From the NCBI GenBank assembly GCA_964436765.1, contig CAYTEH010000002.1:9238-73237 (forward strand): DNA of 64,000 nucleotides, read 5' to 3'. The notes under the pieces are model-generated. The model searched no databases and was not told the origin of the DNA. It saw only the letters and a program-made list of their open reading frames with translations. This stretch comes from an uncultured Candidatus Peribacteria bacterium. GTDB lineage: Bacteria; Patescibacteriota; Gracilibacteria; Peribacterales; Peribacteraceae. Both the position numbers and the translations under genes were made by a program. Each line of letters begins with the position of its first letter. The stretch's first letter is position 1. Positions 15,993 to 44,566 of this stretch are shown here, piece after piece.

Positions 15993-16029
15993 ATAGCAAA
16001 CATAGTTGGCCTGGTTTAGAGTTTTGCGG

Positions 16030-17961
16030 ATGGAAACCTCTCAGATGCCCTCTCTGCCCTCCTGGAAGACCGTGTTGATCGTGATCGGGGCATTTTTTGC
16101 CGCCACGCTGCTCGTGTACGGCCATTCCATCAAGGGCGAATTTGTCCGCTGGGACGACGGCATGCTCGTGTACGAGAACCCCGCAATCCGCGAGATCAGC
16201 CCCCGGACGCTCACGCACATCTTCACCACCTACGATCCGGAACTCTACATCCCGCTTACATTCCTCAGCTATCAGATCGATTACCAGATCGGCGGCATTG
16301 GCGCGACGCAATACCACCTGACGAACTTCCTGCTCCATACCTTCAATGCAATCCTCGTGGCCTGGCTCGTGTTTTTGCTCAGTCGCAAGGGCTTCGTCGG
16401 CATCGTCTGCGGGGCGCTCTTCGCGCTGCATCCGCTCCATACCGAAGCCATCCAGTGGGTGAGTGCGCGGAAAGACCTCCTCTCGACGTTTTTCTTCCTG
16501 CTCTCCATCATCGGGTATATCTATTGGAAGGACCGCGATGACCGTCGCATCTACATCTGGAGCCTCGTGGCCTTCACGCTCGGTCTCCTCTCCAAAGTGA
16601 TGATCATCACGCTGCCGGTGATTTTGTTGCTGGTTGATTTTTTGGATGGACGATTCGTAGGGGCGATTCGCGAATCGCCCCTACGGAAGACATGGCCAAT
16701 CCTGAAGGAAAAAATCCCGTATCTGATGCTCGCAGGAATATTCGGTATCATCGGCATTTTCGGCAAAACGGGCGTGATCCAGTCTTCCACGTTCAGTGGG
16801 AAAATCCTCATGGCGTGCAAGAGCGCGGTCTTTTACCTGCAACAGATCTTCTTTCCCGTACATTTTTCGCTGCTGTACCCGTACGTGAAGCCCATCACGC
16901 TCGCCTCACCCGATTTTTACATTCCCGTTCTCACGCTCCTCATCCTCGCCGCCGCCGCGCTCTACTCGCTCAAGTGGACGCGCGTCGTCGCCTTCGGTCT
17001 CCTCTTTTATATCGTCACCGTCGCGCCCACATTCCTCAACTTTGCGAAGGGCGGCGAGATGGATGTGTATTTTGCATCGGATCGCTACGCGTACGTTCCC
17101 TCCATCGGTATTTTCTTCGCCGCCATATGGCTGCTCTATGAATTCGTCATCATGGGGCGCGCAAGCCAAAAGCAGACCAGGGAGATCATCGTCACGTGCA
17201 TTGCCACGGTCATCCTCCTCGCATGTGCGGCGAAGGCGTACGCGCAGTCGATGGTGTGGAAGAATACCCAGGCGCTCTTCGAGAACGTCATCCGCTATTA
17301 CCCGGAGTCGTCGCACGTCGCGCACAATAACCTGGGCAACGTGTACCGCCTGCAGGGCGATCTGACGAAGGCCGAGAGCGAGTACAAGCAGGCGATCGCC
17401 ATCAAGCCGCATGCGAAGACCATCAGCAACTTAGGAGTCGTCTATCGCAGGCAGGGGAATTTGGGCGTAGCGCTCTCCACGTACGACGAGGCGCTGAAGG
17501 CCGATCCGAACAGCAAAGAGGCGCATTTGGGCCTGGGTCTCGTGCATATGACGGAGAAGAAGTTCGCCGACGCGGCTGCAGAGTTCCAGAAGGCCGTCAC
17601 GATCGATCCGCTCTATGAAGAAGGCTTCACGAACCTGGGAGCCGCGTACGTGTCACTTGGCCGTCTTCCAGAGGCTATCGAGCAGTACAGGAAGGCGCTT
17701 GCGATCAACGCCTTCTTCCCCGATGCGCACTACAACCTTGCTGTTGCGCTGGAGGAGACGGACGACGTGAACGGAGCCATCAAAGAATATGAAGAGACGG
17801 TGCGGCTGGTACCAACCGTGATTCCGGCGCGCATCAACCTGGGCATCCTGTACCACGGGCAGGGGCGGGTGGAGGATGCGCGGAGGCAGTTTGAGGAGAT
17901 CTTGAACATTGATCCTACGAATAAGGCGGCGAGGTCGGCGTTGAAGCAGATTGGAAAATAA
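16030..17961 (+). CDS. GT-C-type membrane protein with C-terminal TPR repeats (TMTC/PMT_2-like putative protein O-mannosyltransferase)
   Basis: N-terminal multi-TM region with FVRWDDGMLVYENP... and ALHPLHTEAIQWVSARKDLL, typical of TMTC/DUF1736-type proteins. The C-terminal 250 aa carry about 7 TPR units (AHNNLGNVYRLQGDLTKAESEYKQAIAIKP...). Confidence 0.8.
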   Translation: METSQMPSLPSWKTVLIVIGAFFAATLLVYGHSIKGEFVRWDDGMLVYENPAIREISPRTLTHIFTTYDPELYIPLTFLSYQIDYQIGGIGATQYHLTNFLLHTFNAILVAWLVFLLSRKGFVGIVCGALFALHPLHTEAIQWVSARKDLLSTFFFLLSIIGYIYWKDRDDRRIYIWSLVAFTLGLLSKVMIITLPVILLLVDFLDGRFVGAIRESPLRKTWPILKEKIPYLMLAGIFGIIGIFGKTGVIQSSTFSGKILMACKSAVFYLQQIFFPVHFSLLYPYVKPITLASPDFYIPVLTLLILAAAALYSLKWTRVVAFGLLFYIVTVAPTFLNFAKGGEMDVYFASDRYAYVPSIGIFFAAIWLLYEFVIMGRASQKQTREIIVTCIATVILLACAAKAYAQSMVWKNTQALFENVIRYYPESSHVAHNNLGNVYRLQGDLTKAESEYKQAIAIKPHAKTISNLGVVYRRQGNLGVALSTYDEALKADPNSKEAHLGLGLVHMTEKKFADAAAEFQKAVTIDPLYEEGFTNLGAAYVSLGRLPEAIEQYRKALAINAFFPDAHYNLAVALEETDDVNGAIKEYEETVRLVPTVIPARINLGILYHGQGRVEDARRQFEEILNIDPTNKAARSALKQIGK

Positions 17962-20174: not shown

Positions 20175-20942
20175 CTATTTCTTCAGAATCGCGTCGATCG
20201 CGCTGTCGAAGCTGGCCTGGGGCACTGCGCCCGAGATCATCTGCGAGGTCTTCGTGTCGTTATTGATGATGAAGCTGCCCGGGGTGCCGTTGACGCCCGC
20301 GGCGGAGCCCGCGTTCATCTGGTCCTGGACTTTCTTGGCGTGCTTGCCGCTGCTGACGCAAGCGGTGAACTTGGCTTCATCCACGCCTGCAGCCTTGGCG
20401 AGAGGAGCGAGGTTGGCAAGGTCAGCTGCCTCGTAAACGGCATCGGTGAACTTCCAGAAAGCGTCGTTGCCACCCAGCTCAGCCACGCACTCGGACGATT
20501 CGGCCGCTTTCTGCGCGTTCGGGTGGAAACTCAGTGGGAAGTGGCGGTACACCCAGTTTACGTCATTGCCGTACTTGGCCATCACCGCTTTCATCGTCGG
20601 GTGGTGACGCTTGCAGAACGGACACTCGAAATCGGAGTACTCGACGATGGTCACTTTTGCGTTGGCGTTGCCGCGTACGTGGTCATCCTTGCTTACCGGC
20701 GGGACGGGACCGGACGGGGCTTCGGGGGTGGGAGCCGATGGCGTGGGCGTGGGAGCCTGCACGATCTGGGTACCGCCGCCACCGCCGGGGCTCATGCGGC
20801 CCAGGCTGTAGCCCGCGGCCATGCCTACGACGCCCAACGAGAGTGCGAGGCCGCCGACGAGGCCCCAGAGGAATCCCGTCGTGACGGGGGAGGAAGAGGA
20901 GGGGTGGGAGGAGGCGTGCTCTTCCCAGCGCATTGCTGACAT
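20175..20942 (-). CDS. Membrane-anchored DsbA-like thiol:disulfide oxidoreductase
   Basis: N-terminal TM helix, Pro/Thr/Ala-rich linker (APTPTPSAPTPEAPSGPVPP), thioredoxin-fold active site EYSDFECPFCKRHHP and a GVNGTPGSFI cis-Pro loop. Confidence 0.85.
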   Translation of the reverse strand: MSAMRWEEHASSHPSSSSPVTTGFLWGLVGGLALSLGVVGMAAGYSLGRMSPGGGGGTQIVQAPTPTPSAPTPEAPSGPVPPVSKDDHVRGNANAKVTIVEYSDFECPFCKRHHPTMKAVMAKYGNDVNWVYRHFPLSFHPNAQKAAESSECVAELGGNDAFWKFTDAVYEAADLANLAPLAKAAGVDEAKFTACVSSGKHAKKVQDQMNAGSAAGVNGTPGSFIINNDTKTSQMISGAVPQASFDSAIDAILKK

Positions 20943-20987
20943 AACGGGAGAAAGAAAGAAGATAAAAAGATTGGAGATTCAAACAGG

Positions 20988-33282: not shown

Positions 33283-33291
33283 TATTCCCAC

Positions 33292-33741
33292 ATGCAGAGC
33301 AGGAGTATTCCGTGGGCATTCCTGGGAGCCCTCTTCCTTGCCCTGGTTCTCGGCTATCTCGCCGGGCGCATGGTGACGTTGCTGTCTTTCCAGTCGTCTC
33401 CGGCCGTCGAGCGGACGGATGAGCGTCCTGCGGTCCCCGTCCTCCACATCGACGGCCGCCAGGGCGAGACGCTCCGCGGGCGCGCATCGGGCGAACTGCG
33501 CATCGAGATCGGCACGCAAGTGATTCCGGCGAAGGATTCCGAGATAACGATCCCGCTCGCGGGGCTGAAGAACGTCGTCACGGTCACGGTCCCGGCCGGG
33601 ATGAAGTACGTCGCGTCCAAAAACGGGAAGTACTACTATCCCGTGGAGTCGGTGGCGGGGGAGAAGATCGTCCCTGCGAATAGGGTCTATTTTGCAAGTG
33701 AGGGCGATGCTGAGGCTGCGGGTTTTGCCGCGGGGCGGTAG
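33292..33741 (+). CDS. hypothetical membrane-anchored protein
   Basis: N-terminal TM helix (WAFLGALFLALVLGYLAG). The C-terminal GKYYYPVESVAGEKIVPANRVYFASEGDAEAAGF resembles Ada-Zn-like 'sunset'-type tails but lacks the cysteines (weak). Confidence 0.55.
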   Translation: MQSRSIPWAFLGALFLALVLGYLAGRMVTLLSFQSSPAVERTDERPAVPVLHIDGRQGETLRGRASGELRIEIGTQVIPAKDSEITIPLAGLKNVVTVTVPAGMKYVASKNGKYYYPVESVAGEKIVPANRVYFASEGDAEAAGFAAGR

Positions 33742-33824: not shown

Positions 33825-34535
33825 CTACAATCGCCCTGTCAACTTCCTCCCGTACAGCACCACCACGGACTTCAACATTTCCGTGCTATCTTTCACCAGG
33901 CGTACTTTCGATTCGGGTACCGCTGTCCATTTCACCTGTACTTCGGCGATTTTGAATTTCCGTGACTGTGCGAGAGCCAGGATCTCGATGTCGCACGCGA
34001 AGCGGTCGATGCGTTGTTTCTTGAAGATCGCCTGCGCCGCTTCCCGGGTAAAGAGCTTGCAGCCGCACGCCGCATCCCTGATGCCGGGGATGAGCGGGTA
34101 GCAGAGCGCGTGGTATACCCTGCCGATGAAGCGCCGGTGCGGGCTCATGTAGACGTCCTTGTTGAGGCGCGAGCCGATGGCGATGTCCGCCTTCCGCTTC
34201 TTCAGCGCCGCGAACAAGTGCCCGATCTCCTCCACCGGGGTGGCCGCGTCGGCGTCGTAGAAGAGCGCGTAGTCTCCCGTTGCCGCAAGCATCCCGGCGC
34301 GCACGGCAGCGCCCTTGCCGCGGTTCCGTTTGAGTTCGATCACCCGGACGGGGAGGCCCTTCTCGGCTTTGGCCAGCGCCACGGTCCTGTCGCGGCTGCC
34401 GTCATCGGCCACGATCACTTCTTTCAGTACCGGCAGGCCGGCCGGTTTGCCTTTGAAGTACCCGGCGAGTTTTTTGAGCGTGGAAGGCAGGCGGTCTTCC
34501 TCGTTAAATGCCGGGATGATGACGGACAATGTCAT
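33825..34535 (-). CDS. GT2 glycosyltransferase, polyprenyl-phosphate sugar synthase type (DPM1/Ppm1/GtrB-like)
   Basis: SVIIPAFNEE..L..TL........EVIVADDGSRD.T........V..I....NRGKGAAVRAGM..A.GDY.LF.DAD is the GT-A DxD layout, with no TM region. Confidence 0.85.
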   Translation of the reverse strand: MTLSVIIPAFNEEDRLPSTLKKLAGYFKGKPAGLPVLKEVIVADDGSRDRTVALAKAEKGLPVRVIELKRNRGKGAAVRAGMLAATGDYALFYDADAATPVEEIGHLFAALKKRKADIAIGSRLNKDVYMSPHRRFIGRVYHALCYPLIPGIRDAACGCKLFTREAAQAIFKKQRIDRFACDIEILALAQSRKFKIAEVQVKWTAVPESKVRLVKDSTEMLKSVVVLYGRKLTGRL

Positions 34536-34615
34536 GAGTGTGGTGGATGATACCTGAGACGGAACGGGCGGGTGAGGAATTGCGGGAGATTCGCGTACGG
34601 GTTATTGTTCTCCCC

Positions 34616-37570
34616 ATGAAGCGGACGATCGGGATCATCACAGCCGGGCTCGTGTGCGTGCTCGGGTTACTGCTGTTTCACCGGGCTCTCATGGATTCGG
34701 GGAACGACATGCGCGTGTACCGCGAGATCGGCAGGAATGTGATGGCAGAGGAGCCGTCTTTCAAGAGCGAGTATCCGCCGCTGATGTCGGCAACGTTCAC
34801 ACTGATATCTGTTGAAGACCAGAAAACGTTCACCTGGATCTGGATTGCGCTGCTCGCCGCCTGCGCCGCGGGTATCGCGGTGTTCGGCGCCTGGCGCATG
34901 AAGGACGAAGTGTCCGCCGCCTTCCCGGCCGCGTTCGCGCTCACGATCCTGCTGCTTGGGCCCACTGTGACACTCGCGCGCTTCGATATCCTCATGCTGA
35001 TGGCGCTGTTTCTCGCATGGAGGACCCATGAAAAAGAGCGGCCGGCAGAGAGCGGCTTCTGGTTGGCTATTGCCGTTGCCATCAAACTTGTGCCGATCCT
35101 GTTCCTTCCCCTGTTCCTGGTGCTGTCGCCCAAAGGGCACTGGAAAAGCTTCCTCAAGGGCTTCGTGCTTGGCGGGGTGGCGAGCGTTCTCTTCGCCACA
35201 GCGGTGCTGGGTCCGGGAGGCCTGTACGCGAACACGACATACATGCTCGCGTACCATGCCGAACGGGGGGTCCAGGCAGAAAGCCTGTGGTCCGGGTTGG
35301 TGTTGCTCGGGGGCAAAGTCTTCGGGATGCAGCCGGGTATTATCTTTGATCATGGCGCGTACCACCTGACCGGAGCTCCTGGCTGGCTCAAGTCCCTGGC
35401 ACTTGTGACGACGCTCGTCGGCGTCGCGGTCATCACGTGGATCGCCTGGAAACGCAGGAAAGCGAAACATCCGCTTGCAGCCCTGTGCCTGGCGCTGATC
35501 CTATGGAGCCTCGCCGCGAGTTCGGTGCTCTCGGCGCAATTCCTAGTATGGGTGGTGCCATTCCTGCTTCTCTACTGCTATGAGCGGTGGATGCAGGGCG
35601 ACACGCCCGTCCCGTCGTTTCCGCTCCTCCTCACTGGAACATTGCTCGTGGCACTCCTGACTCAGTGGGTGTACCCCACCCACTATGAAGACGTCCTCGG
35701 CATGAACGACGACGCGCTCCTTATATTGAATATCCGGAACCTGCTTCTGCCCGTGCTTGCGGCGATGCTGCTCTGGCCGAGGCAATCCTCGACGAAACCG
35801 AAGACAGGCCGGAAGCGGTCCATCGCCCTTCCCGTCCTTTCTTTCGCGGCCGCCCTTGTCCTGGTGCCTGTGATGAGCTCGTTCCTGTGGCCGCGGTGGG
35901 AGAATGTCCGGTACTCGTTCGACGGTACGCAGTGGGAACAGGGCGTGCTGCCGCTCAAGCTGGCGGGCCGGCAATCGAACCTGACGGTCGAGATGGATGC
36001 GTACTCGTCGGGCATTCACCCGCGCCGTTACCGCGTGCTGCCCGATGACTGCCTGGAGTCGGTGGAGGTGAACGGCAAGCGGATCACCGCCGACCAGTTC
36101 TGCGATCCGCAGAACGGCCGGGTGGTGCGCGTCGGTTCGGAATTCAAAAAGGGAATCAACCACGTGCGGATGACGGTGCGCGATACCGGCGGCGAGACGG
36201 GTCTTGCGATCGTGATGGATCCCGACGACGTGCTCATGCAGCTCTTCGGGCTCGTGTGGGTGCTGGCGGTGATTGCCGCGGGGTCGTGGCTCATCGTCAC
36301 GGCGGTCCCGAAAGGCAATCTGCGGCTCCTGTACTTCGCGGGCCTGGGTGGCACGGCGCTCCGGTTGCTCTACATGCTCTCCACGCAGTACATACACCGC
36401 GCATACGACTGGGACGGGCACCTCGACTACGTCCGTCACGTGCTCACCCACTGGACCATCCCCCCGGCCGTGAGCGGCTGGGAGATGCACCAGGCGCCGC
36501 TGTACTACTTCCTCACGGCCAGCCTCTACCGGGCCATGACGTTCATCGCCGCGTCCACGAGCCAGTTCTTCATCGGGATGCTCCAGTACGTCTCGTTCCT
36601 GTGCTCCGCGGGCGCGCTCTTCTTCGGCATCTGGACCGTGCGGCGGCTCTTCCCTAAAAAACCGGCGCCGGCGCTGCTCGCGTCGCTCATCATCGCCACG
36701 TTCCCCGGGCTCGTGATGTTCGCGTCGCGCATCTCGAACGACTCGCTCTACCATCTCCTCGCCTTCGCGACGCTCGCGGCCATCGTGCTCTGGTGGCAGC
36801 AGGGGACGCGGAGGAACGCCGCGCTCGTGGGGCTCGCGTTCGCTGCGACGTTCCTCGTGAAAGTGAGCGTCTTCGTGATGGGTCCCGTCATCGGCGCGTG
36901 CCTGCTCCTGCATCCGCGCCTCACATGGAAACAGAAATTCGTGCACGGCGGCATCATGGCCCTCCTCGTCATCGTCCTGGCGGCATGGCTGCCGGCGGTG
37001 CGTTTCATGGAAGAACAGACGCACAGCATCACGAGCTTCGGTCATTCCTCCATCAACCCCGGGTTGCTGATGCCCACCACGGCCGAGTCATTCCTCACCT
37101 TCAACCCGGTCCAGGTCCTGCTCATCCCGTTCAACAACACCTGGGACGATGCCTCGCGCCGCATGTACTTCTGGGAGTTCTTCTACCGTTCCGCGTTCTA
37201 CGGCGAATTCAACATGGGCGATAACCGGCGCGCCCTGAGCCAGGTGATCCTGCTGCTCGGCATGGCCGCGGCCGGGCTGATGTTCTACGGGCTCCTGCGG
37301 GAACTGCGCGCCCGCTGGCGCGAGACGCTGCCCCTGTGGGGAACGCTCGGATTGCTGGTACTCGGGAGCATGACGTTCCGGTTCCTGTTCCGCTGTTCAT
37401 GCGACCAGGATTTCCGCTTCGCGATCGTGGCGGTGGTGCCCATCGCGTACTTCGCCGCGTCATCGGTCGCGTACCTGCCCAAACGGGGCGGGCTGCTCGC
37501 GAAGCACGTGCTGCTCGCGCTGGCGGCGTCGAGCGCGGGGTTGCTGCTCAGCTTCTGGTTGTGGCCGTAG
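34616..37570 (+). CDS. 984-aa polytopic membrane protein: apparent fusion of two GT-C-type modules (DUF2029/GT87-like N-half, PMT_2/ArnT-like C-half) separated by a soluble domain
   Basis: The N-half has YREIG....E......EYPPLMSATF and more than 10 TM helices. Residues about 470-560 are hydrophilic (WENVRYSFDGTQWEQG...VRMTVRDTGGETG). The C-half has HRAYDWDGHLDYVRHV..HWTIPP.....EMHQAPLYYFL plus more than 10 TM helices. ATG 34616 lies inside ORF 34538.. Confidence 0.75.
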   Translation: MKRTIGIITAGLVCVLGLLLFHRALMDSGNDMRVYREIGRNVMAEEPSFKSEYPPLMSATFTLISVEDQKTFTWIWIALLAACAAGIAVFGAWRMKDEVSAAFPAAFALTILLLGPTVTLARFDILMLMALFLAWRTHEKERPAESGFWLAIAVAIKLVPILFLPLFLVLSPKGHWKSFLKGFVLGGVASVLFATAVLGPGGLYANTTYMLAYHAERGVQAESLWSGLVLLGGKVFGMQPGIIFDHGAYHLTGAPGWLKSLALVTTLVGVAVITWIAWKRRKAKHPLAALCLALILWSLAASSVLSAQFLVWVVPFLLLYCYERWMQGDTPVPSFPLLLTGTLLVALLTQWVYPTHYEDVLGMNDDALLILNIRNLLLPVLAAMLLWPRQSSTKPKTGRKRSIALPVLSFAAALVLVPVMSSFLWPRWENVRYSFDGTQWEQGVLPLKLAGRQSNLTVEMDAYSSGIHPRRYRVLPDDCLESVEVNGKRITADQFCDPQNGRVVRVGSEFKKGINHVRMTVRDTGGETGLAIVMDPDDVLMQLFGLVWVLAVIAAGSWLIVTAVPKGNLRLLYFAGLGGTALRLLYMLSTQYIHRAYDWDGHLDYVRHVLTHWTIPPAVSGWEMHQAPLYYFLTASLYRAMTFIAASTSQFFIGMLQYVSFLCSAGALFFGIWTVRRLFPKKPAPALLASLIIATFPGLVMFASRISNDSLYHLLAFATLAAIVLWWQQGTRRNAALVGLAFAATFLVKVSVFVMGPVIGACLLLHPRLTWKQKFVHGGIMALLVIVLAAWLPAVRFMEEQTHSITSFGHSSINPGLLMPTTAESFLTFNPVQVLLIPFNNTWDDASRRMYFWEFFYRSAFYGEFNMGDNRRALSQVILLLGMAAAGLMFYGLLRELRARWRETLPLWGTLGLLVLGSMTFRFLFRCSCDQDFRFAIVAVVPIAYFAASSVAYLPKRGGLLAKHVLLALAASSAGLLLSFWLWP

Positions 37571-37576
37571 GAAAGC

Positions 37577-38929
37577 TTAAATATACACCGGCACCATGAG
37601 GTTCAGCAGCATGAAGGCACACAGCCCGCTGAGGAGTAGTCGTCTGCCCCAGAACGTCTGAAGAAATTTCGAAATCCGTTTCGTCTGGAGCACCTGCGCC
37701 GTCAGGTACGTGGCGCCGAGCGTGGCCGGAGCGATGTACACCCCTTTCACCGGACCCCATCCCGCGAAGGGGCTCTGGTACAGGTACAGGATGAATGACG
37801 CGAGGAACGCGGCGCCGGCGGCGAGGACCGTCCAGCCGAGCGCGCGCCAGTGCCGCTGCGCTTTTTTTCGGAGAGCGAACAGCGCGAGCCCAAGGGGCGT
37901 GAGGCAGGTGGCACCGATGAGCCAGATGCGGCCCACGGTCAGGCTGAGCCCGGGTCCCGTGAAGATCCCCACCCAGAAATCCCACCAGGCGTTCCAGATC
38001 CGCAGTTTGCCGCTGTTGCGCTGCGTGATGCTGGCGCTCAAAAAAAGCGTCCGGAAAAATTCCGCCGGATCGGCGTCGCGCGCGGCTTTTGCCTCCATCT
38101 GGCCACCGCCGTTCATCCAGTTCACGTTATTCGGGAAGTACGTGTGCTCCGTGCTCTGCCTGTACCGCACGTGGTAGTAGGGGAACGCCAGCGCTCCGGC
38201 CACGAGTACGGCGCACAGCAGCGGCGCCCAGGCGCGGGCGATGCGCGTGCGTTCACGCGAGACCGCGAGCGCCGCGAGCGGGATCACCGGCAGCAGGATG
38301 CCCGAGAATTTGGTGAACGGGCCCGCGAGGAGCGTCAGTCCCATGATTGCCCAGAGTGTCGCTCGCTTCCAGCCCCGGCGTTTCTCCGGTTCCCAGAAGA
38401 GCCGGGCCGAGACGTACAGCAGCATCGTCACATAGCACAGGATGAGGACGTCCAGGTTCATCGAGGTCTGGAGGTAGAACTGGATGGGTATGGCCGCGAA
38501 GACGTACAGGAACGCGAGCCCCGCCGGCCGGAGCAGCAGGTTCAGGTGTTTGAGCGTCGCCCTGAGCAGCAGGAACGCCAGCACCGATGCCGCGAACGAG
38601 ACGATCTGCACGGCCTGTACGTCCGTCAGGCCCATCAGGAAAAACGGCTTTGCAAAGAGGAATCCCAGCGGCGGGTGATACGCGTAGAAGAGCGAATGGA
38701 TGTCCATCATCAGGTTGTCCCAGCGGATCTCGCGCACCATTTCGAGGTGCGGTCCCGGGTCGGAGCCCGACATCTGCCCCGCGCGTTCCCATGCGAGCGC
38801 GATCTTTCCCAGCACCAGCAGCATGCAGAGCCACCGTTCGTGGACGGCCGGTATCAGCGTCGTAGCGTCGTGTCTGCTCGTGCGTGCCTGCATCCGGGAA
38901 ACGATACGGAAAATACCGCGCCTGCTCAA
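37577..38929 (-). CDS. GT-C-type (PMT_2/ArnT-like) membrane glycosyltransferase candidate
   Basis: First-loop motif DPGPHLEMVREI......DIHSLFYAYHPPLGFLF, and more than 10 TM helices. Confidence 0.7.
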   Translation of the reverse strand: MSRRGIFRIVSRMQARTSRHDATTLIPAVHERWLCMLLVLGKIALAWERAGQMSGSDPGPHLEMVREIRWDNLMMDIHSLFYAYHPPLGFLFAKPFFLMGLTDVQAVQIVSFAASVLAFLLLRATLKHLNLLLRPAGLAFLYVFAAIPIQFYLQTSMNLDVLILCYVTMLLYVSARLFWEPEKRRGWKRATLWAIMGLTLLAGPFTKFSGILLPVIPLAALAVSRERTRIARAWAPLLCAVLVAGALAFPYYHVRYRQSTEHTYFPNNVNWMNGGGQMEAKAARDADPAEFFRTLFLSASITQRNSGKLRIWNAWWDFWVGIFTGPGLSLTVGRIWLIGATCLTPLGLALFALRKKAQRHWRALGWTVLAAGAAFLASFILYLYQSPFAGWGPVKGVYIAPATLGATYLTAQVLQTKRISKFLQTFWGRRLLLSGLCAFMLLNLMVPVYI

Positions 38930-39016
38930 ACGGATTCACCATCTTCCGGCAAGATTGCAGCACAAGTCCCGGCGCGCGCGACTGTTCTTTGCGCGCGCGT
39001 CCCCTATGATGCGCGC

Positions 39017-40333
39017 ATGCGGAAGCGGTTCCACGGTCCGTTCCAATGGCTCTTCATCGCACTCGGGATGCTGCTGCTCATCGCGCTTCCCCACGCCCTC
39101 CGTTCCGACGGCCTCGAGCGGTACCTGGCGCTCCTCGAATTGATCCGTAACGGCACTTTTTCCGTGACCAAATACTCGATGGTGGGCCCGCTGTTTGCGT
39201 TGCCGCTCTTCGTTCTCGGCAAGCTTGCGGGAAACGAGCAGGGGATCACGTCCAACTTCAACATCCTCGTGCTCCTTGCCGGCATGTGCACGCTGTTCAT
39301 CGCGCTTGCGCGCCGGCTCGCGGTCCCCGAGGTCCGCTCGTTCCTCCTCATCCTGCTGTTCGGTTCCATGATGCCGGTGCACGCGTTGCATTTTTACGGC
39401 GAGATGTTCACCGCGGTCACGGTCGCGGCCGGCACCGCCGCCGCCCTGCTCGCGGGCGCACACTCGGGGTGGGTCTGGACGGTGCTCGGGGCAGCCAACA
39501 CGCCCATGGCACTGGTCGGCTTCGGGTTCCTGGCGCTGCGTCAGGCATGTTCCCTCAAAAAATACCGGTATCTGTTGCTGCCGGCAGCCGCGCTCGGGCT
39601 CATTCTGCTCGAGGCGAAGCTCCGGCGCGGGGGATTTTTGATATCGGGATACGCGGGCGAGCACGGGAAAGAATCGGTGCTCCCGTACACCTCGCGTGCC
39701 GGTTTCGGCTTCCCCTTCGCCGTCGGCTTCCTCTCGCTCACGCTCTCCTTCGGCAAGGGTATCATCTTCTACGCGCCGGGATTGCTCGCTGTGCCTGCGT
39801 TCCTGCGCTCGTCCGCCGATGCCGCCGTCCGGCATCTGCTCGAACTCTGGCTCTGGTTTTTGCTCGGGATCCTGCTCGTGGCCTCCACGTGGTACAGCTG
39901 GCAGGGAGGGTGGTTCTGGGGCCCGCGTTTTTTGATGTTCGCGAGTTTTCCCGCATCGCTCGCGCTCGCATGGCAGGTGCACCGGGCCCGGACGTTCCCC
40001 GCGTGCGTCATCACGCTGCTGCTCCTCGCGCTCAGTTTCTGGGTGGGCTTCTCGGGGCTTGTCTTCAACCAGCGTGATATGGCCCTGTGCTTGCAGGACA
40101 ACGCGCGGCTGGAGCCGCTCTGCTGGTACACGCCGGAATATAGCGCGCTGTGGCGTCCGTTCGTCACGGGCAAGATCTACGGGATGAACATGTTTGAGAC
40201 GGGCATCGCGCTCGTGTGGCTGGGCGCATTCCTCTGCACCGCATGGCCGCTTTTTGTGCAGCTCAGCACGCTGCTGCCGGGCAGGTGGGCGAACATCCGG
40301 GCAACGCTCCGTCCGTCGCACTGGCGTTTCTGA
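39017..40333 (+). CDS. Polytopic membrane protein, possible GT-C-fold enzyme
   Basis: 438 aa, more than 10 TM helices, early loop SDGLERYLAL and a WGPRFLMF motif. The real start is at ATG 39017, because the upstream part of ORF 37850.. is antisense to the preceding gene. Confidence 0.65.
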   Translation: MRKRFHGPFQWLFIALGMLLLIALPHALRSDGLERYLALLELIRNGTFSVTKYSMVGPLFALPLFVLGKLAGNEQGITSNFNILVLLAGMCTLFIALARRLAVPEVRSFLLILLFGSMMPVHALHFYGEMFTAVTVAAGTAAALLAGAHSGWVWTVLGAANTPMALVGFGFLALRQACSLKKYRYLLLPAAALGLILLEAKLRRGGFLISGYAGEHGKESVLPYTSRAGFGFPFAVGFLSLTLSFGKGIIFYAPGLLAVPAFLRSSADAAVRHLLELWLWFLLGILLVASTWYSWQGGWFWGPRFLMFASFPASLALAWQVHRARTFPACVITLLLLALSFWVGFSGLVFNQRDMALCLQDNARLEPLCWYTPEYSALWRPFVTGKIYGMNMFETGIALVWLGAFLCTAWPLFVQLSTLLPGRWANIRATLRPSHWRF

Positions 40334-40339
40334 GCTGCC

Positions 40340-41368
40340 TTACGACAGGTATTTGAGAATGCGGATGACGCCCATCTTCGCCGCCTGCTTGTGGGCCGAG
40401 ACGCCGGTGCGGTGCTCGATCTCGTTGCGGTGCGTGTGGTAGTACTCGTACGCCTTCGCCATCATTTCTTCGTTGGTGAGTGTCGGGGCCCATCCCAGCT
40501 TCGCCTGTATTTTTTGTGTATCGAACACGAAATCCTCCGCGATCATCTTGTACTGGTACGGCCCGAGCGGCGAGAGTTTCAGCGCGTAGGCCAGCTTCAT
40601 CGCCGGGATCGCTATCCATCGCGGGAAGTTCGCGACACGTGCCTTTGTCCCCGCTTTGTCGATCATGTACTGGTACACGTCCCTGAACGATTTCACATGA
40701 TCGGAGCCGATGTTGAATACGTCGGTTGCGGGGTACGTAAGAGCGCGAATGCACGCATCGATCAGGTCTCCGGCATAGATGAACTGGTAGGTGTTCCTGC
40801 CGCCTCCCACCACCCACACCCTGCGACCCTCGTCGATGAACTCGAACAGGATCGAGAGCAGGCCGAGCCTCCCGGCGTCGATGATCGTGGGGCAGCGGAA
40901 GATGATCGAATGGAATTCCGTGTGGCCCAGCAGGATCTTCTCGCCTTCCCATTTGCTGCGCCCGTAGATCTCCACCGGTTCGGGCGCGTCCTCCTCCGTC
41001 ACCGGGCGGCCGAAGTTTTTGCCCCACAGGCAGTTGCTGGAGGTGAAGACCACTTTTTTGACGCCGAATTCGGCCGCGCAATCGGCCACGACCGCAGTCC
41101 CGTCCACGTTCGAGGTCCAGAGCATCTCTGTATCCTTCACCGCGTGGGCGAGCATGGCGGCGCAGTGCATCACGGCATCGAAGCGGTGCTCGCGGAAGAG
41201 GCTGCGCATCCGTTCGCGGTCCCGGATGTCGCCCCGGATGCAGGTACAGCCCGCCGGGTCTTCGTCCTGTTCGAGGTCTATGCTCACGCACGCATGGCCG
41301 CGCTTGATGAGCTCCCGCTTGAGCAGCGAGCCGAAAAATCCGGCGCCTCCGGTGACGAGGATGACCAT
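40340..41368 (-). CDS. NAD-dependent epimerase/dehydratase (extended SDR)
   Basis: MVILVTGGAGFFGS Rossmann motif and a YxxxK region (YGRSKWEGE). Confidence 0.9.
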   Translation of the reverse strand: MVILVTGGAGFFGSLLKRELIKRGHACVSIDLEQDEDPAGCTCIRGDIRDRERMRSLFREHRFDAVMHCAAMLAHAVKDTEMLWTSNVDGTAVVADCAAEFGVKKVVFTSSNCLWGKNFGRPVTEEDAPEPVEIYGRSKWEGEKILLGHTEFHSIIFRCPTIIDAGRLGLLSILFEFIDEGRRVWVVGGGRNTYQFIYAGDLIDACIRALTYPATDVFNIGSDHVKSFRDVYQYMIDKAGTKARVANFPRWIAIPAMKLAYALKLSPLGPYQYKMIAEDFVFDTQKIQAKLGWAPTLTNEEMMAKAYEYYHTHRNEIEHRTGVSAHKQAAKMGVIRILKYLS

Positions 41369-41424
41369 GGAGGAATGGTAGCAGACTCACCGGGTCCATT
41401 CTTCCAGAATGCGATGGAGCGAGC

Positions 41425-42735
41425 TCAGGCCCGGACGCTGTATTCTTTGGGGTCGTACACCGCAAACAGGGTCAGCAGCATGCCGCCAGCAAGGTAGTAG
41501 AAATTACAGAAAGCATGCGAGCCCAGTACAAGAATTGAAAACAGCGTGAGTACGCACGCGCTTACAAAACCAGGGAGACCCGCCCGTCGAAAACGCAGAG
41601 TCAATGCTATCGCGGCGGCGGCGCCGATGAAAAGCATGGCATGCGTCCCGGTTTCGCCGATATACGGATGCAGAAACGAGCCCAGGCTGAGGCTATCGGT
41701 GCGCAGCCATGTGTTCTGTCCGAACAAGATGCCGTTGTTCCAGAGTGATTCCATGTCCCAGAGCGCGAACGGTATGAGCGTCAGGAGGCCTGCAATGGCG
41801 ACCATCAGCCATCGCCAGGGACGTTTTTCCACAATGACGTACGGCAGCAGAAGCAGCAGGACGGATTGCTTGGAGGCAAGGAACCAGCCGTACGTGACTG
41901 CGGCGAGCATTTTCTTCGATCGCTGGAGAAGCAGCAGCGTCAGTGAAAATGCTCCAAGCATCATCGGCTCCATCCATCCCTGCTCCAGTACGAACATGCC
42001 TCGAGGGTGATAGAGGAATAGCAGCAACAACAAGAACGCTTTGTCCGCCGGCCAACGTGTTTTACGGAGCTGTATCCATAGAATCCACACGAAGAGGAAT
42101 TCGGCTGCGATGAGGGCGTAGCGGATGTCTCCGAACAACACGTACCCGACGAACTGCGGATAGAGCGATGCCGGAGGATAGGCGTAGTGTTCCACCGTGC
42201 GGAACGAGCCATGATAAATGTCGTTCATCGGGGCGGTATACGGATTGTTGCCGAGCCGCATGTGCTCCGCCGATTGCTGGCTGAGCGAATGAACGTCTAC
42301 GAGGGGTTCCGGTGATGCGATGGGAATGAACAGGCGGAGCGCCAGCGCGGTTACTGTTGCCAGCCCGAGGAGCCCCGAGCGAATCTTTGGGAACAGGGCG
42401 ATGCTTTGCAGGAGGGTGATGCACAGCACAACTGCGTTTGTTGCATGTACGGCGGTTTCGAACCACGAGGAGGCGGGATACAGAAGCGGTGAGGATGTAT
42501 ATTGGAGCGTCAGCAGTACACTTGCGCCCGCAACCAAAGCGGTGATCGACGGAACAAGGGAGTTCGGTTTTTTCTTCAGTGCCGGCAGGGCGATGAGCAC
42601 ACAGGCGATCAGGACATAGGCGATTGCCACCAAAAAAAACGCGCGTGGCGTATACATGCCTTCATGAAGATTCAAGCCCCACGCCAGAAGCACGTACGAC
42701 AAGACTAGGATGTCTCCCATGGGCATGCAGCGCAC
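41425..42735 (-). CDS. DUF2029/GT87-like polytopic membrane protein (putative mannosyltransferase)
   Basis: 436 aa, more than 10 TM helices, loop NPYTAPMNDIYHGSFRTVEHYAYPPASLYP typical of the GT87-type family. Confidence 0.65.
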   Translation of the reverse strand: MRCMPMGDILVLSYVLLAWGLNLHEGMYTPRAFFLVAIAYVLIACVLIALPALKKKPNSLVPSITALVAGASVLLTLQYTSSPLLYPASSWFETAVHATNAVVLCITLLQSIALFPKIRSGLLGLATVTALALRLFIPIASPEPLVDVHSLSQQSAEHMRLGNNPYTAPMNDIYHGSFRTVEHYAYPPASLYPQFVGYVLFGDIRYALIAAEFLFVWILWIQLRKTRWPADKAFLLLLLFLYHPRGMFVLEQGWMEPMMLGAFSLTLLLLQRSKKMLAAVTYGWFLASKQSVLLLLLPYVIVEKRPWRWLMVAIAGLLTLIPFALWDMESLWNNGILFGQNTWLRTDSLSLGSFLHPYIGETGTHAMLFIGAAAAIALTLRFRRAGLPGFVSACVLTLFSILVLGSHAFCNFYYLAGGMLLTLFAVYDPKEYSVRA

Positions 42736-42780
42736 TGTACAAGAACCAGTTGCGGAAGAATAGGGAGGTGTTCCTCTCGC

Positions 42781-44499
42781 TTATTTCCCCGGTTCCCGGA
42801 ACGGGACCACGAGCGGGTCGCCCTTGTCGCAGTTGACGCAGTGCAGGTCCCAGAGCGGCAGAATCGCGCGGCGGGCGACCTGGGCGTCGGTGAGGGGTTC
42901 GTAGTACGTGAGCGGCCGGTAGTACTGGAAGCCCGCGAACACCAGGAACGCGAGCAGCATGAGGCCGAACGTGCGGCGCTGCTCCGTCACCTTCCACTTG
43001 CCGACGACGCCGATGTTATCGATGACGATGGCCAGCACGAAGAAGCTGAGCATGAGCGGCAGGAAGTAGTGATACAGGTACAGCACGCGGCCGATCTGCG
43101 AGACCGCGATGCAGAAGCTCAGGTAGATGCCGAAGAAGACCGCGAGAAGCCCGAGGTTGCGGAACGGTTCGCGCGTCGGGAAGAACGCGCGCGCGAAGAA
43201 GATGCCTGCGGCCATAAGAAGCCCCAGCAGCGCCGTCCACCAGATGACGGGGTTGGCCTGGAGGTAGAGGTAGCTGTAGGTCTGCGATTCCGGCGGCTCG
43301 CCCGCGGCGAGTCCCGGCGTCGCCCAGCGGTAGTTGATGGAGCGTGCACCGAGCGGCCAGAAGAACCACGGGCTGCCGTTCTCGTCCGTCTTGCACAAGT
43401 CGAGGCGCGGCGCGCCGGCGTTGTAGAACGTGACGTACTTGAGCGAGTCGCGCAGCATGTAGGGGAACGCGCCCAGGCTCGCGGTGGTTCCTTTGTCCAG
43501 GTAGTCCTTATATTCGACGGAGGCCTGGTAGTAGCCCTGATCCGGGAGCGAGGGGTTGATGACGCGGCCGCTCGAAAAATGCACGTACCACACGGAACAG
43601 TAGACGAGGAGGAAGGCGGGGATCATCGTCAGGAGCAGGACCGGGATCGCGCGTGAGCGGGGGATGAATTTCCAGAGCGCCCAGATCCCGCCTGCGATCG
43701 CCGCGAGCGAGAGCAGCGCCATGAGCCACAGGTTGGCAATCAATCCCACGAATGCCAGGAGCAGCACGAACGTTCCGGCCGAGATGATGAAGAGTTTCAG
43801 GAAGTCGCGGCGCGTGGCGAGGAGCCTCAGCGCCAGCGCCGGCACGAGCAGGATGAGCGCGAGCCCGAGTACTTTGGTGGTGACGAGCGCGGCGAATGAG
43901 GCGCCGAACAGCGCCGACCACCAGATGAATTTCTTCTTCGATTCCTCATGCCACAGCAGCAGGAACGCGAGGATGTTGAGCGCGCAGAAAAAGAGGAACG
44001 GCCCCTCGAGCATCGCGCCGCGGTGGTGGACGATGAGCGCGTTATCGAAGATATAGAGGAAGCTCAGGAGCGTCGCATTGAGCGGGTTACGCCGGCTTAA
44101 GAGGTAGAAGATGCCGAACACCACCGGCGCTGTGAACCAGGCGAGCATCGCGGGGAACAGGCGGTAGCCCGCGAACGAGAAGCCCTCCGGGAAATTGGTG
44201 GCGTAGTCGGTCCCAAGGTACTGGTTACTCTGCGCATTGGGGCGGAGCAGCGCCTCTCCCGCCGCGATGAGGAGCTTGCCCAGGGGCGGGTGCTGTTCCA
44301 TGAAATACGTGCCGTGCAGGTACTTCTGCGCGCTTGCGATATGGTAGTTCTCGTCCCAGTAGACGTAGGGCGGGTAGGTGTACCGGTGGAAGTAGGTGAA
44401 GTACGAAATAAGCAGCACGAAGCCCAGAAAAGCCCATGTGTGCCAGGGTTTCGAGACGATTGGTTTCTGGGAGGAGGGGGTCATAGTCGGTGGGATCAT
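42781..44499 (-). CDS. Dolichyl/polyprenyl-phosphate-mannose protein O-mannosyltransferase (GT39, PMT family)
   Basis: YVYWDENYHIASAQKYL.GTYFMEQHPPLGKLLIA is the loop-1 DE motif region of PMTs. More than 10 TM helices. Start uncertain: 44535, 44499 or 44484. Confidence 0.85.
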   Translation of the reverse strand: MIPPTMTPSSQKPIVSKPWHTWAFLGFVLLISYFTYFHRYTYPPYVYWDENYHIASAQKYLHGTYFMEQHPPLGKLLIAAGEALLRPNAQSNQYLGTDYATNFPEGFSFAGYRLFPAMLAWFTAPVVFGIFYLLSRRNPLNATLLSFLYIFDNALIVHHRGAMLEGPFLFFCALNILAFLLLWHEESKKKFIWWSALFGASFAALVTTKVLGLALILLVPALALRLLATRRDFLKLFIISAGTFVLLLAFVGLIANLWLMALLSLAAIAGGIWALWKFIPRSRAIPVLLLTMIPAFLLVYCSVWYVHFSSGRVINPSLPDQGYYQASVEYKDYLDKGTTASLGAFPYMLRDSLKYVTFYNAGAPRLDLCKTDENGSPWFFWPLGARSINYRWATPGLAAGEPPESQTYSYLYLQANPVIWWTALLGLLMAAGIFFARAFFPTREPFRNLGLLAVFFGIYLSFCIAVSQIGRVLYLYHYFLPLMLSFFVLAIVIDNIGVVGKWKVTEQRRTFGLMLLAFLVFAGFQYYRPLTYYEPLTDAQVARRAILPLWDLHCVNCDKGDPLVVPFREPGK

Positions 44500-44566
44500 A
44501 CCTTTCTCAATTTTGTTAAGACAGTTTATTCTCATCTGTCATACACAATGATATCCTTCCGCACAC

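What the first reader, a model, noticed from the sequence alone, without database searches (positions are those of the whole stretch)
33825..44499. Eleven-kb glycosylation locus packed with GT-C-fold membrane enzymes (PMT, GT87-like, ArnT-like) plus lipid-sugar synthase and epimerase
Seven consecutive genes make up this locus:
- a GT2 polyprenyl-phosphate sugar synthase (33825..34535)
- a 984-aa double GT-C fusion
- an ArnT/PMT_2-like protein
- a further polytopic protein
- an SDR epimerase/dehydratase
- a DUF2029/GT87-like protein
- a GT39 protein O-mannosyltransferase with the loop-1 DE motif (WDENYH)
A TPR-bearing TMTC-like GT-C protein also sits at 16030. GT-C enzymes use polyprenyl-phosphate-linked sugars made by GT2 enzymes, so the gene set is functionally coherent for extracytoplasmic glycosylation. 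The window also encodes obvious candidate substrates. These are secreted or anchored proteins with Ser/Thr/Pro-rich linkers: DsbA-like APTPTPSAPTPEAP, and the FN3/LamG protein SSSSSSAATSSSVSSMSSSTSS. Such density of GT-C genes is unusual for a small-genome lineage. Two convergent gene pairs in the locus (37570/37577 and 40333/40340) are each separated by only 6 nt.
Basis: partly seen in the sequence, partly recalled or inferred. Interest (0 to 1): 0.6.

Follow-up and report, generated by a model that had tools for sequence, protein, structure and literature searches.

The report
Strain-variable membrane glycosyltransferase locus in Peribacteria
An ultra-small wastewater bacterium carries a real 10.7-kb cluster of six outward-facing, lipid-sugar-dependent sugar transferases next to a protein O-mannosyltransferase, and its middle 4.5 kb is swapped for a different enzyme set in co-existing strains, so it probably makes a strain-specific sugar coat.

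Summary
Window 33825-44535 holds seven adjacent genes:
- a GT2 polyprenyl-phosphate sugar synthase
- a 984-aa fusion of a GT87/PimE-like module, a beta-sandwich and a PMT_2/ArnT-like module
- a PMT_2-like GT-C (g3)
- a 438-aa protein with no Pfam family (g4), which folds as a GT-C (pLDDT 94; the top solved-structure matches, ranks 1-12, are all GT-C)
- an extended SDR
- a GT87/PIG-M-like GT-C (g6)
- a bacterial-type GT39 PMT with the DE motif

All six membrane modules keep an acidic residue in the catalytic loop, and none looks like a transporter.

A sister strain is 99.5% identical in both flanks. Between 34637 and 39168 it carries a different GT-C set, in which the two fused modules are separate genes. 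Both versions co-occur in one wastewater sample. Relatives of each version occur in other species, and a congener has a third assortment in the same chromosomal slot.

GT-C richness is typical of the whole family (2-14 PMT_2 matches per genome, against 0-3 in sister families). It is not special to this genome.

The most likely function is extracytoplasmic O-glycosylation of Ser/Thr-rich surface proteins, or of a wall polymer, with strain-specific decoration. The sugar and the acceptor are not established.

The parts
33825..34535 (-). GT2 polyprenyl-phosphate sugar synthase (236 aa, no C-terminal membrane domain)
   Evidence: PF00535 6.8e-30. All solved-structure matches (7 at E<=1e-5) are polyprenyl-P glycosyltransferases: Pyrococcus DPMS 2.3e-13, ArnC, GtrB. 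NCBIfam hits (PgfS, ArnC, AglJ, PpgS) all fall far below the equivalog cut-offs, so the sugar is unknown.
34616..35815 (+). Fusion protein, N-terminal GT87/PimE-like GT-C module (residues 1 to about 400)
   Evidence: GT87 1.5e-15. AF2 model matches PimE with TMt 0.56. Asp31 in GNDMRVY follows TM1, and EYPP is at residue 52.
35825..36217 (+). Fusion protein, membrane anchor plus beta-sandwich (residues 404-534) with conserved PDDCL..VNG, FCD and D.GG motifs
   Evidence: AF2 places strands at 427-534. A stretch of about 130 residues matches the sugar-binding jelly roll of GH2 beta-mannosidase. The domain is conserved in the 560-636-aa stand-alone homologues and absent from the ~430-aa ones.
36230..37570 (+). 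Fusion protein, C-terminal PMT_2/ArnT-like GT-C module (residues 539-984)
   Evidence: PMT_2 1e-6. pLDDT is mostly above 85. Fold matches to STT3, Emb, Pmt4 and ArnT. Conserved loop motifs are [YH]D..GH..Y (Asp598) and HQAPLYY.
37577..38929 (-). g3, PMT_2-like GT-C (438-450 aa)
   Evidence: PMT_2 27.1 bits, above the cut-off. Its family matches the fusion's C module by hhalign at 98.9% probability, E 2.8e-17, with the loop motifs aligned. FYAYHPPLGFL is invariant and G-x-D-x-G-x-H-L-E-M is conserved.
39017..40333 (+). g4, GT-C of a family with no Pfam model (438 aa); mosaic gene carrying the right-hand recombination breakpoint
   Evidence: No Pfam hit. About 100 homologues, none with any Pfam hit in the membrane domain. 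AF2 pLDDT 94.4, pTM 0.93. Foldseek ranks 1-12 are all GT-C enzymes, including ArnT, ALG12, ALG9, EmbB, AglB, Pmt4, ALG6 and AftA; ALG3 and PimE appear lower down. Asp31 and Arg35 are invariant. Nucleotide identity to the sister strain is about 60% before 39179 and 97-100% after it.
40340..41368 (-). Extended SDR nucleotide-sugar epimerase/dehydratase-like protein (342 aa)
   Evidence: Epimerase 4.8e-38. Nearest solved structure is a UDP-glucose 4-epimerase, 1.7e-24. GxxGxxG and YxxxK are present in the sequence. Homologues of 55-71% identity occur in many metagenomes, often beside an FAD amine-oxidase-like gene.
41425..42735 (-). g6, GT87/PIG-M-like GT-C (431-436 aa)
   Evidence: GT87 21.8 bits, below the cut-off. 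27 of 59 family members match GT87. The family profile matches solved GPI mannosyltransferase I at 7.5e-9. Asp142, Tyr181, Pro183 and Arg200 are invariant.
42781..44535 (-). GT39 protein O-mannosyltransferase, bacterial type without MIR domains (567-584 aa)
   Evidence: PMT 5.3e-26 plus PMT_4TMC 4.1e-16. Aligns to fungal Pmt4, Pmt2 and Pmt1 with the DE and HPPLGK motifs matched. Conserved in 17 of 18 genera of the family.
34637..39168 (.). Strain-variable cassette (type A here: the fusion, g3 and the first ~50 codons of g4)
   Evidence: Sister-strain contig L017 is 99.5% identical to 45383..39166. It then differs completely until 34636..34607. Its replacement is 5.7 kb with four other genes. 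Both versions are present in run X4. A contig from another study also breaks at 34636.
16006..17961 (+). Separate TPR-bearing GT-C (TMTC-like architecture), outside the locus
   Evidence: Strong TPR hits at 437-649. The N-terminal membrane domain gives a weak PMT match, 2.2e-4. No link to the locus was shown.
20175..20978 (-). Candidate acceptor only: membrane-anchored DsbA-like protein with a Pro/Thr/Ser linker
   Evidence: Thioredoxin_4 1.5e-23, DSBA 1.9e-18. The linker TPTPSAPTPEAPSGPVPPVS follows the anchor. Glycosylation was not tested.

Best explanation
This is a cell-surface glycosylation locus that works on the outer face of the membrane.

1. Donor synthesis. In the cytoplasm the GT2 enzyme loads a sugar from a nucleotide sugar onto polyprenyl phosphate. 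The SDR probably makes or interconverts that nucleotide sugar. The lipid-linked sugar is flipped by a flippase encoded elsewhere; GtrA homologues lie on contigs C5 and C22.
2. Transfer. Six GT-C modules then use such lipid-linked sugars as donors. The conserved GT39 PMT most likely starts O-glycosylation on Ser/Thr of secreted or anchored proteins with Ser/Thr/Pro-rich linkers.
3. Extension. g4 stays next to PMT in related species. g4, g6 and the modules of the central cassette (GT87-like, PMT_2-like, with a sugar-binding-like beta-sandwich) most likely extend or decorate the glycan.
4. Variation. The central cassette is exchanged between strains by homologous recombination in the conserved flanks, so co-existing strains display different glycans.

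Shown here: the enzyme families and folds, the conserved catalytic-loop acids, the cassette replacement with its breakpoints, and co-occurrence of both cassette types in one sample.

Inferred only: the sugar, the acceptor (protein or polymer), the order of the steps, and the selective force.
For: - Families and folds.
- The GT2 resembles only polyprenyl-P sugar synthases.
- PMT is conserved in the family, and a GT2 gene lies within about 0.6 kb of it in 8 of 12 relatives' loci.
- g4 is convergent with PMT in two further species.
- Cassette replacement: flanks 99.5% identical; cassette non-homologous or 35-46% identical at protein level.
- Both types in run X4: type B at depth 17, type A pieces without mismatches at depth 2-9. 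The same break at 34636 appears in another study.
- A-like and B-like cassettes occur in other species whose PMT is 79-82% identical.
- A third assortment occupies the congener's slot: DIE2/ALG10-like, PMT_2-like and GT87-like GT-Cs plus two GT2s.
- About 15 predicted secreted or anchored proteins carry Ser/Thr/Pro-rich stretches.
- Contigs of a related strain in a metatranscriptome cover GT2, SDR, g6 and PMT.
- The same logic is experimentally established in streptococci, where a GT2 and GT-C enzymes (plus an epimerase in the Pgf operon) glycosylate Ser/Thr-rich regions (PMC12041528).
Against: - There is no chemistry: neither donor sugar, acceptor nor product is known.
- The genes sit in five transcription units, so co-regulation is not shown.
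- No flippase is in the locus.
- The GT2 here is only about 30% identical to the GT2 that sits next to PMT in most genera.
- SDR and g6 are absent from the nearest related species, so they may serve a different product.
- The SDR family usually pairs with an FAD oxidoreductase, which here lies on another contig.
- g6 is below Pfam's cut-off.
- The fusion's N module is modelled at only moderate confidence.
- The RNA evidence comes from assembled contigs of a related strain, and DNA carry-over is not excluded.
Confidence: 0.6

Rival explanations
1. The accessory GT-C enzymes (fusion, g3, g4, g6) build or decorate a non-protein polymer on the outer face. This could be a lipoglycan or a wall or teichoic-acid-like polysaccharide, as in mycobacterial LM/LAM and arabinogalactan assembly or YfhO-type teichoic-acid glycosylation. 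PMT would be a conserved neighbour with a separate job.
For: - GT87, PMT_2 and Emb/Aft-like folds are the classic enzymes of polymer assembly.
- A carbohydrate-binding-like beta-sandwich inside the fusion recalls the carbohydrate-binding modules of Emb and AftD (knowledge of those enzymes).
- The genes sit in separate transcription units.
- Peribacteria are reported to invest heavily in surface polysaccharides and polyprenol-sugar enzymes (PMC4736985).
Against: - g4 stays glued to PMT in three lineages.
- A GT2 gene lies within about 0.6 kb of PMT in 8 of 12 relatives' loci examined.
- No polymerase, ligase, LCP or primer glycosyltransferase gene is in the locus.
Confidence: 0.3
2. The genes are neighbours only because this chromosomal slot is an insertion hot spot for the many GT-C genes of this family. 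They serve several unrelated glycosylation reactions and do not form one pathway.
For: - The genome has at least 16 GT-C genes spread over several islands.
- Slot content differs in every lineage examined.
- Gene orientations alternate.
- The fusion partners are found as separate genes, in the reverse order, in the sister strain.
Against: - Fusion of two of the modules in three divergent lineages argues that at least those two act together.
- In the sister strain their separate homologues overlap by 4 nt.
- The whole block is replaced as a unit between strains.
Confidence: 0.08
3. Some of the polytopic proteins (g3, g4) are transporters or other membrane proteins, not glycosyltransferases.
For: - g3 gives a TauE sulfite-exporter match, 2.8e-6.
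- g4 and g3 give no sequence match to any solved structure.
Against: - The TauE score is below its curated cut-off, while the PMT_2 score is above its own.
- The g3 family matches the PMT_2 module of the fusion at 98.9% probability.
- The 12 best solved-structure matches of the g4 model are all GT-C; transporters appear only at E > 0.08 with TM about 0.2.
- Catalytic-loop acids are conserved.
Confidence: 0.02

Closest known systems
Actinobacterial protein O-mannosylation (polyprenyl-P-mannose synthase Ppm1, GT39 Pmt such as Rv1002c, with GT87-type enzymes nearby in envelope mannosylation)
   Same: A GT39 PMT without MIR domains, carrying the DE motif and a PMT_4TMC domain. A soluble-type GT2 lipid-sugar synthase. 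GT87-like GT-C enzymes. Candidate acceptors with Pro/Thr/Ser linkers.
   Different: The organism is a 1.3-Mb Peribacteria genome. Five further GT-C modules surround the PMT. The sugar is unknown. The GT2 is not an equivalog of any named synthase. Part of the locus varies between strains.
Streptococcal Pgf (PgfS, PgfE, PgfM1, PgfM2) and GtrB/PgtC2 protein glycosylation of Ser/Thr-rich disordered regions (PMC12041528)
   Same: The same parts list and logic: GT2 lipid-sugar synthase, epimerase, and two or more GT-C enzymes acting outside the membrane on Ser/Thr-rich linkers.
   Different: The streptococcal GT-C enzymes belong to the YfhO family. Here they are GT39, GT87-like, PMT_2-like and an unnamed family. 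The PgfS match is only 57 bits against a cut-off of 500.
Gtr-type three-component O-antigen modification (GtrA flippase, GtrB synthase, serotype-specific GT-C)
   Same: A conserved lipid-sugar synthase plus an exchangeable GT-C that sets the surface type. The variable part is the GT-C itself.
   Different: No GtrA is in the locus. Nothing points to a phage (no phage genes among those annotated in the locus; no GC anomaly). Several GT-C genes are exchanged at once by flank recombination. The acceptor is not an O-antigen, on my understanding that CPR bacteria lack an outer membrane.
Mycobacterial/corynebacterial extracytoplasmic glycan assembly (PimE, MptA/B, EmbA-C, AftA-D)
   Same: Many GT-C enzymes using polyprenyl-P sugars in sequence. 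GT-C domains combined with carbohydrate-binding domains. Fold matches to PimE, Emb and Aft.
   Different: No homologues of the lipid or arabinan primers were identified. The GT-C density per gene is, by my rough recollection of mycobacterial numbers, higher here. Two GT-C modules are fused in one chain.

Membership tests
GT39 protein O-mannosyltransferase (PMT) | PMT domain (PF02366) above the curated cut-off | tested here: met
   92.1 bits against a cut-off of 22.7
GT39 protein O-mannosyltransferase (PMT) | C-terminal four-helix PMT_4TMC domain (PF16192), which separates GT39 from ArnT-like proteins | tested here: met
   59.5 bits against 32.4. Among 14 control genomes this model matches only Corynebacterium.
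GT39 protein O-mannosyltransferase (PMT) | Asp-Glu motif in the first extracytoplasmic loop | tested here: met
   WDENYH aligns with FDEVHF of Chaetomium Pmt4
GT39 protein O-mannosyltransferase (PMT) | Transfer of mannose from polyprenyl-P-mannose to Ser/Thr | not testable with these tools
   Needs an enzyme assay or glycoproteomics
GT87 (PimE-like) | PF09594 above the cut-off, for the fusion's N module | tested here: met
   58.1 bits against 25. The model matches PimE with TMt 0.56.
GT87 (PimE-like) | PF09594 above the cut-off, for g6 | tested here: not met
   21.8 bits against 25. 27 of 59 relatives match. The family profile matches GPI mannosyltransferase I (GT50) at 7.5e-9. g6 is therefore filed as GT87/GT50-like, not as a member.
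PMT_2 / ArnT-like GT-C | PF13231 above the cut-off | tested here: met
   Fusion C module 29.5 bits and g3 27.1 bits, against 26.1. Both are marginal. They are supported by hhalign at 98.9% between the two families and by fold matches to ArnT and Pmt4.
GT-C fold superfamily (g4) | Polytopic GT-C fold with an acidic residue at the start of the first outer loop | tested here: met
   pLDDT 94.4. The 12 best PDB matches are all GT-C, with TM up to 0.52. Asp31 is invariant in 47 sequences. Its position in the model's active site was not inspected.
Polyprenyl-phosphate sugar synthase (DPMS / GtrB / ArnC type GT2) | GT2 catalytic domain most similar to lipid-phosphate sugar synthases | tested here: met
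   PF00535 6.8e-30. All 7 solved-structure matches at E<=1e-5 are DPMS, ArnC or GtrB.
Polyprenyl-phosphate sugar synthase (DPMS / GtrB / ArnC type GT2) | Membrane-embedded C-terminal helices, as in GtrB and archaeal DPMS | tested here: not met
   The protein is 236 aa with no hydrophobic tail. From my knowledge of those enzymes, it resembles the soluble Ppm1/DPM1/PpgS type. Another GT2 in the genome carries the GtrA_DPMS_TM domain.
Gtr-type three-component system | GtrA-family flippase encoded with the synthase and the GT-C | tested here: not met
   PF04138 matches only at C5:32511 and C22:3196, not in the locus
Pgf system of Streptococcus mutans | PgfS equivalog and YfhO-family GT-C enzymes | tested here: not met
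   PgfS 57 bits against a cut-off of 500. No YfhO match among the locus proteins. The locus works like Pgf but is not a member.

The most novel reading that the evidence does not exclude
Peribacteria may keep a serotype-like, trans-species polymorphism of GT-C cassettes next to a conserved PMT-g4 core. Co-existing strains would then wear different O-glycans, maintained by phage or host-recognition pressure on these episymbionts. Within it, the GT87 / beta-sandwich / PMT_2 fusion would be a single-chain two-step enzyme. g4 would found a new GT-C family that partners with bacterial PMT. The SDR, together with its widespread FAD-oxidoreductase partner, would form a two-enzyme sugar epimerase analogous in logic to DprE1/DprE2.
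Probability: 0.25. Interest if true: 0.65.

Novelty: new variant of a known kind. Interest (0 to 1): 0.48.

Why it matters
Candidate-phyla-radiation (CPR) bacteria live attached to other cells, and their surfaces are almost unstudied. My full-text searches found nothing on GT-C enzymes or variable glycan loci in these bacteria. The Peribacter genome paper only notes multiple 'dolichol-phosphate mannosyltransferase' genes (PMC4736985).

This locus offers three things:
- A concrete, testable system for surface glycosylation in a 1.3-Mb genome.
- Nucleotide-level evidence that the glycan machinery is swapped between co-existing strains. That is the kind of variation expected if phages or hosts recognise the glycan.
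- Unstudied enzymes: an unnamed GT-C family with homologues in Actinomycetes and Polyangia, and a double GT-C fusion that predicts which modules act together.

Tried and rejected
- Transporter reading of g3 (TauE match): rejected by cut-offs, by the family's Pfam content and by hhalign.
- Sequence searches of the g4 and g3 family profiles against solved structures found nothing useful. Fold search was needed.
- The genomic context of distant g4 homologues (Micromonospora, an unknown 145-kb contig) is uninformative; the genes stand alone.
- The g4 and g6 families are not detectably related to each other.
- No sigma-70-like promoters were found, and terminator-like hairpins add nothing.
- There is no composition anomaly that would mark foreign DNA: cassette A has GC 0.633, cassette B 0.592, the genome 0.59.
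- There are no close paralogues of any locus family elsewhere in the genome.
- The 414-aa type B protein stays unassigned. I noted a QWDSYWY motif in its first loop, but that is only a lead.
- The substrate of the SDR could not be narrowed beyond 'extended SDR, GalE-like'.
- One look-up failed because I gave wrong coordinates.
Full report
**Anatomy**

The window is C2:9238-73237 of a 1.30-Mb, 47-contig, 91%-complete genome. Earlier notes call it Peribacteria. One g3 homologue is named 'Candidatus Peribacteria bacterium' by NCBI.

ORF listing and translation give seven adjacent genes:

| Gene | Coordinates | Strand |
|---|---|---|
| GT2 | 33825-34535 | - |
| 984-aa fusion | 34616-37570 | + |
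| g3 | 37577-38929 | - |
| g4 | 39017-40333 | + |
| SDR | 40340-41368 | - |
| g6 | 41425-42735 | - |
| PMT | 42781-44535 | - |

FtsH follows at 44567 (+). A long + strand ORF (37850-40333) is real only in its last 438 codons; that part is g4. The two 6-nt convergent spacers are confirmed. The genes form five transcription units, and only PMT-g6-SDR are co-directional.

**Are the membrane proteins GT-C enzymes?**

- Pfam places the fusion in GT87 (N half) and PMT_2 (C half), g3 marginally in PMT_2, and PMT in PMT + PMT_4TMC. g6 falls just below the GT87 cut-off. g4 has no Pfam family.
- g4 has about 100 homologues of 30-69% identity. None has a Pfam hit in the membrane part. Some carry a C-terminal PA14 domain, and sources include Micromonospora, Catellatospora and Polyangiaceae.
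- An alignment of 47 g4 homologues has invariant Asp31 and Arg35 (PHxxxGDGxxR) and a W..W.....WGPR block. AlphaFold2 gives pLDDT 94.4 and pTM 0.93. The 12 best matches among solved structures are all GT-C enzymes, including ArnT, ALG12, ALG9, EmbB, AglB, Pmt4, ALG6 and AftA, with TM up to 0.52; ALG3 and PimE appear lower in the list. Transporters appear only at E > 0.08 with TM about 0.2.
- The g3 family has 17 members, mostly Peribacteria. It has invariant FYAYHPPLGFL and a conserved G-x-D-x-G-x-H-L-E-M loop. It matches the fusion's C module by hhalign at 98.9% probability, with those motifs aligned.
- g6 has 1,843 relatives among 50%-identity representatives. Asp142, Tyr181, Pro183 and Arg200 are invariant. 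27 of 59 relatives match GT87. The family profile matches solved GPI mannosyltransferase I at 7.5e-9.
- PMT aligns to fungal Pmt4, Pmt2 and Pmt1 with the DE and HPPLGK motifs matched, and it lacks MIR domains.

**The fusion**

Two other full-length fusions exist, at 44% and 34% identity, so the architecture is not an assembly artefact.

The AF2 model was built from 16 sequences (pLDDT 79, pTM 0.68). The C module is well defined and the N module only moderately. It shows about eleven helices, then a membrane anchor, a beta-sandwich at residues 427-534, and a second helical bundle.

Fold search returns STT3, Emb, Pmt4, PimE (TMt 0.56), ALG9/12, ArnT and PIG-M. A stretch of about 130 residues matches the sugar-binding jelly roll of GH2 beta-mannosidase.

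The beta-sandwich carries conserved PDDCL..VNG, FCD and D.GG motifs. It belongs with the PMT_2-like module: stand-alone homologues of 560-636 aa have it, while homologues of about 430 aa lack it. The charged segment KPKTGRKRS before the anchor, and the number of helices, place the sandwich and both catalytic loops outside the membrane. This topology is my inference from the sequence.

**Donor side**

All solved-structure matches of the GT2 (7 at E<=1e-5) are polyprenyl-phosphate sugar synthases: archaeal DPMS, ArnC and GtrB. No NCBIfam equivalog cut-off is approached, so the sugar is unknown. The protein lacks a membrane tail.

GtrA-family flippase domains occur only on contigs C5 and C22.

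The SDR is an extended SDR nearest to UDP-glucose 4-epimerases. It belongs to a strongly conserved family, 55-71% identical across many soil, peat and sediment metagenomes. In 32 of 80 of those loci the SDR lies beside a ~530-aa FAD amine-oxidase-like gene; this includes 12 of the 22 loci with full flanks. The median gap is 130 nt. In this genome that FAD gene (51% identical) is on contig C22. There it sits in a third glycosylation island with a GT2-GtrA fusion, GDP-mannose dehydratase, a sugar dehydrogenase and a GT-C-like protein. The locus is therefore not self-sufficient.

**The variable cassette**

A Logan contig from another wastewater run (L017, 11.9 kb) encodes identical SDR and PMT proteins. 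It is 99.5% identical to window 45383..39166. After that it shares nothing with the window until the last 30 nt, which equal 34636..34607.

In place of the fusion and g3, L017 carries four genes:
- a stand-alone GT87 gene, 43% identical to the fusion's N half and with the same first codons
- an unassigned 414-aa polytopic protein
- an overlapping gene pair, a PMT_2-like protein with the beta-sandwich (591 aa) followed by a GT87 protein (409 aa), each about 35% identical to the fusion halves but in the reverse order

The right breakpoint lies inside g4. Nucleotide identity is about 60% up to 39178 and 97-100% from 39179.

In run X4 the type B contig and both flanks have depth about 17. Mismatch-free pieces of cassette A lie at depth 2-9, and one of them begins exactly at the 30-nt overlap. 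Both haplotypes therefore co-exist in that sample. In run X5, from a different study, a flank contig again ends at 34636 and cassette A pieces have about half the flank depth. Runs X1, X3 and X9 show type A alone.

**Age of the cassettes**

In two other species (PMT 82% and 79% identical) g4 is again convergent with PMT-FtsH, without SDR and g6. One has a g3 orthologue (73%) upstream, so it is A-like. The other has orthologues of the type B 591-aa and 414-aa genes (51% and 75%), so it is B-like.

The GTDB congener G001 fills the slot between the conserved small proteins h151/h149 and PMT differently. It has a DIE2/ALG10-family GT-C (1e-26), two GT2s, a PMT_2-like protein and a GT87/PMT_2-like protein.

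Across 12 genera the recurrent core is PMT with a GT2 gene within about 0.6 kb (8 of 12 loci; a ninth lies 1.6 kb away), often with a homologue of the fusion's C module and FtsH. There is no GC anomaly.

The pattern is that of capsule or O-antigen loci: old, divergent cassettes moved by recombination in conserved flanks. Here, however, the exchanged genes are GT-C enzymes.

**How unusual is it?**

PMT_2-type matches number 2-14 per genome in all 25 genera of the family (11 here). In 16 other families of the class they number 0-3. PMT_4TMC occurs in 58 of 301 sampled genomes of the phylum.

Earlier notes of this scan describe comparable GT-C arrays, a double-module GT-C and a 'cassette slot' in other CPR lineages. 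I treat those as leads only.

Full-text searches found no paper on GT-C enzymes or such loci in CPR bacteria. The Peribacter paper mentions about eight 'dolichol-phosphate mannosyltransferase' genes and strong investment in surface polymers.

**Function**

The best-supported mechanism has three stages:
- synthesis of a lipid-linked sugar
- flipping by a flippase encoded elsewhere
- transfer by outward-facing GT-C enzymes

PMT probably starts O-glycans on Ser/Thr-rich linkers. The other modules would extend or decorate the glycan, and the cassette would set a strain-specific outer structure.

The closest experimentally studied parallels are actinobacterial Ppm1/Pmt and the streptococcal Pgf and GtrB/PgtC2 systems. 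The main rival is that the accessory enzymes act on a wall polymer or lipoglycan. I put it at about 30%.

Contigs of a related strain in a metatranscriptome cover GT2, SDR, g6 and PMT but not the cassette. This is weak evidence of expression.

Noticed in passing
G000 contig C22:1-11000 (locus L115): A third glycosylation island. It holds an SDR, a 389-aa polytopic protein with a YPHPPLL motif and no Pfam hit, a GT2 fused to a GtrA/DPMS membrane domain, another SDR, a 560-aa FAD amine-oxidase-like protein, GDP-mannose 4,6-dehydratase and a UDP-Glc/GDP-Man dehydrogenase-family enzyme.
   Followed up: partly
window 40340-41368 and loci L035-L114: The SDR belongs to a family that is 55-71% identical across very different metagenomes. 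In 32 of 80 loci it lies next to a ~530-aa FAD amine-oxidase-like gene, usually within 200 nt and in any orientation. This suggests an undescribed two-enzyme sugar-modifying pair. In this genome the two genes are on different contigs.
   Followed up: partly
G000 contig C5:15755-49342 (loci L116, L117, not analysed): A second GT-C-rich region. It has four PMT_2-type matches (one in a 965-aa ORF), two GT2 genes, a GtrA gene and a paralogue of the FAD protein.
   Followed up: no
L020:4205-5443 (congener G001): A 412-aa protein of the DIE2/ALG10 family (PF04922, 1e-26) sits in the same chromosomal slot. This is a eukaryote-typical lipid-linked glucosyltransferase family.
   Followed up: no
window 32806-33741: Two small membrane-anchored proteins (h151, h149) flank the slot and are conserved next to it in several genera. 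h151 gives a sub-threshold TadE-like N-terminal match (21 bits against 22.9).
   Followed up: no
one search hit list (for example P0020, P0035, P0040): g4-family proteins in other phyla often carry a C-terminal PA14 (carbohydrate-binding) domain. This fits an outward-facing, glycan-related role for this unnamed family.
   Followed up: no
relatives' genomes: Many PMT_2 matches in the family lie in ORFs of 900-1,200 aa. Long or double-module GT-C proteins may therefore be common in Peribacteria.
   Followed up: no
L119:1383-2801: A 472-aa protein with no Pfam family lies inside the B-like cassette of a related species. It has no counterpart in type A or type B of this species.
   Followed up: no
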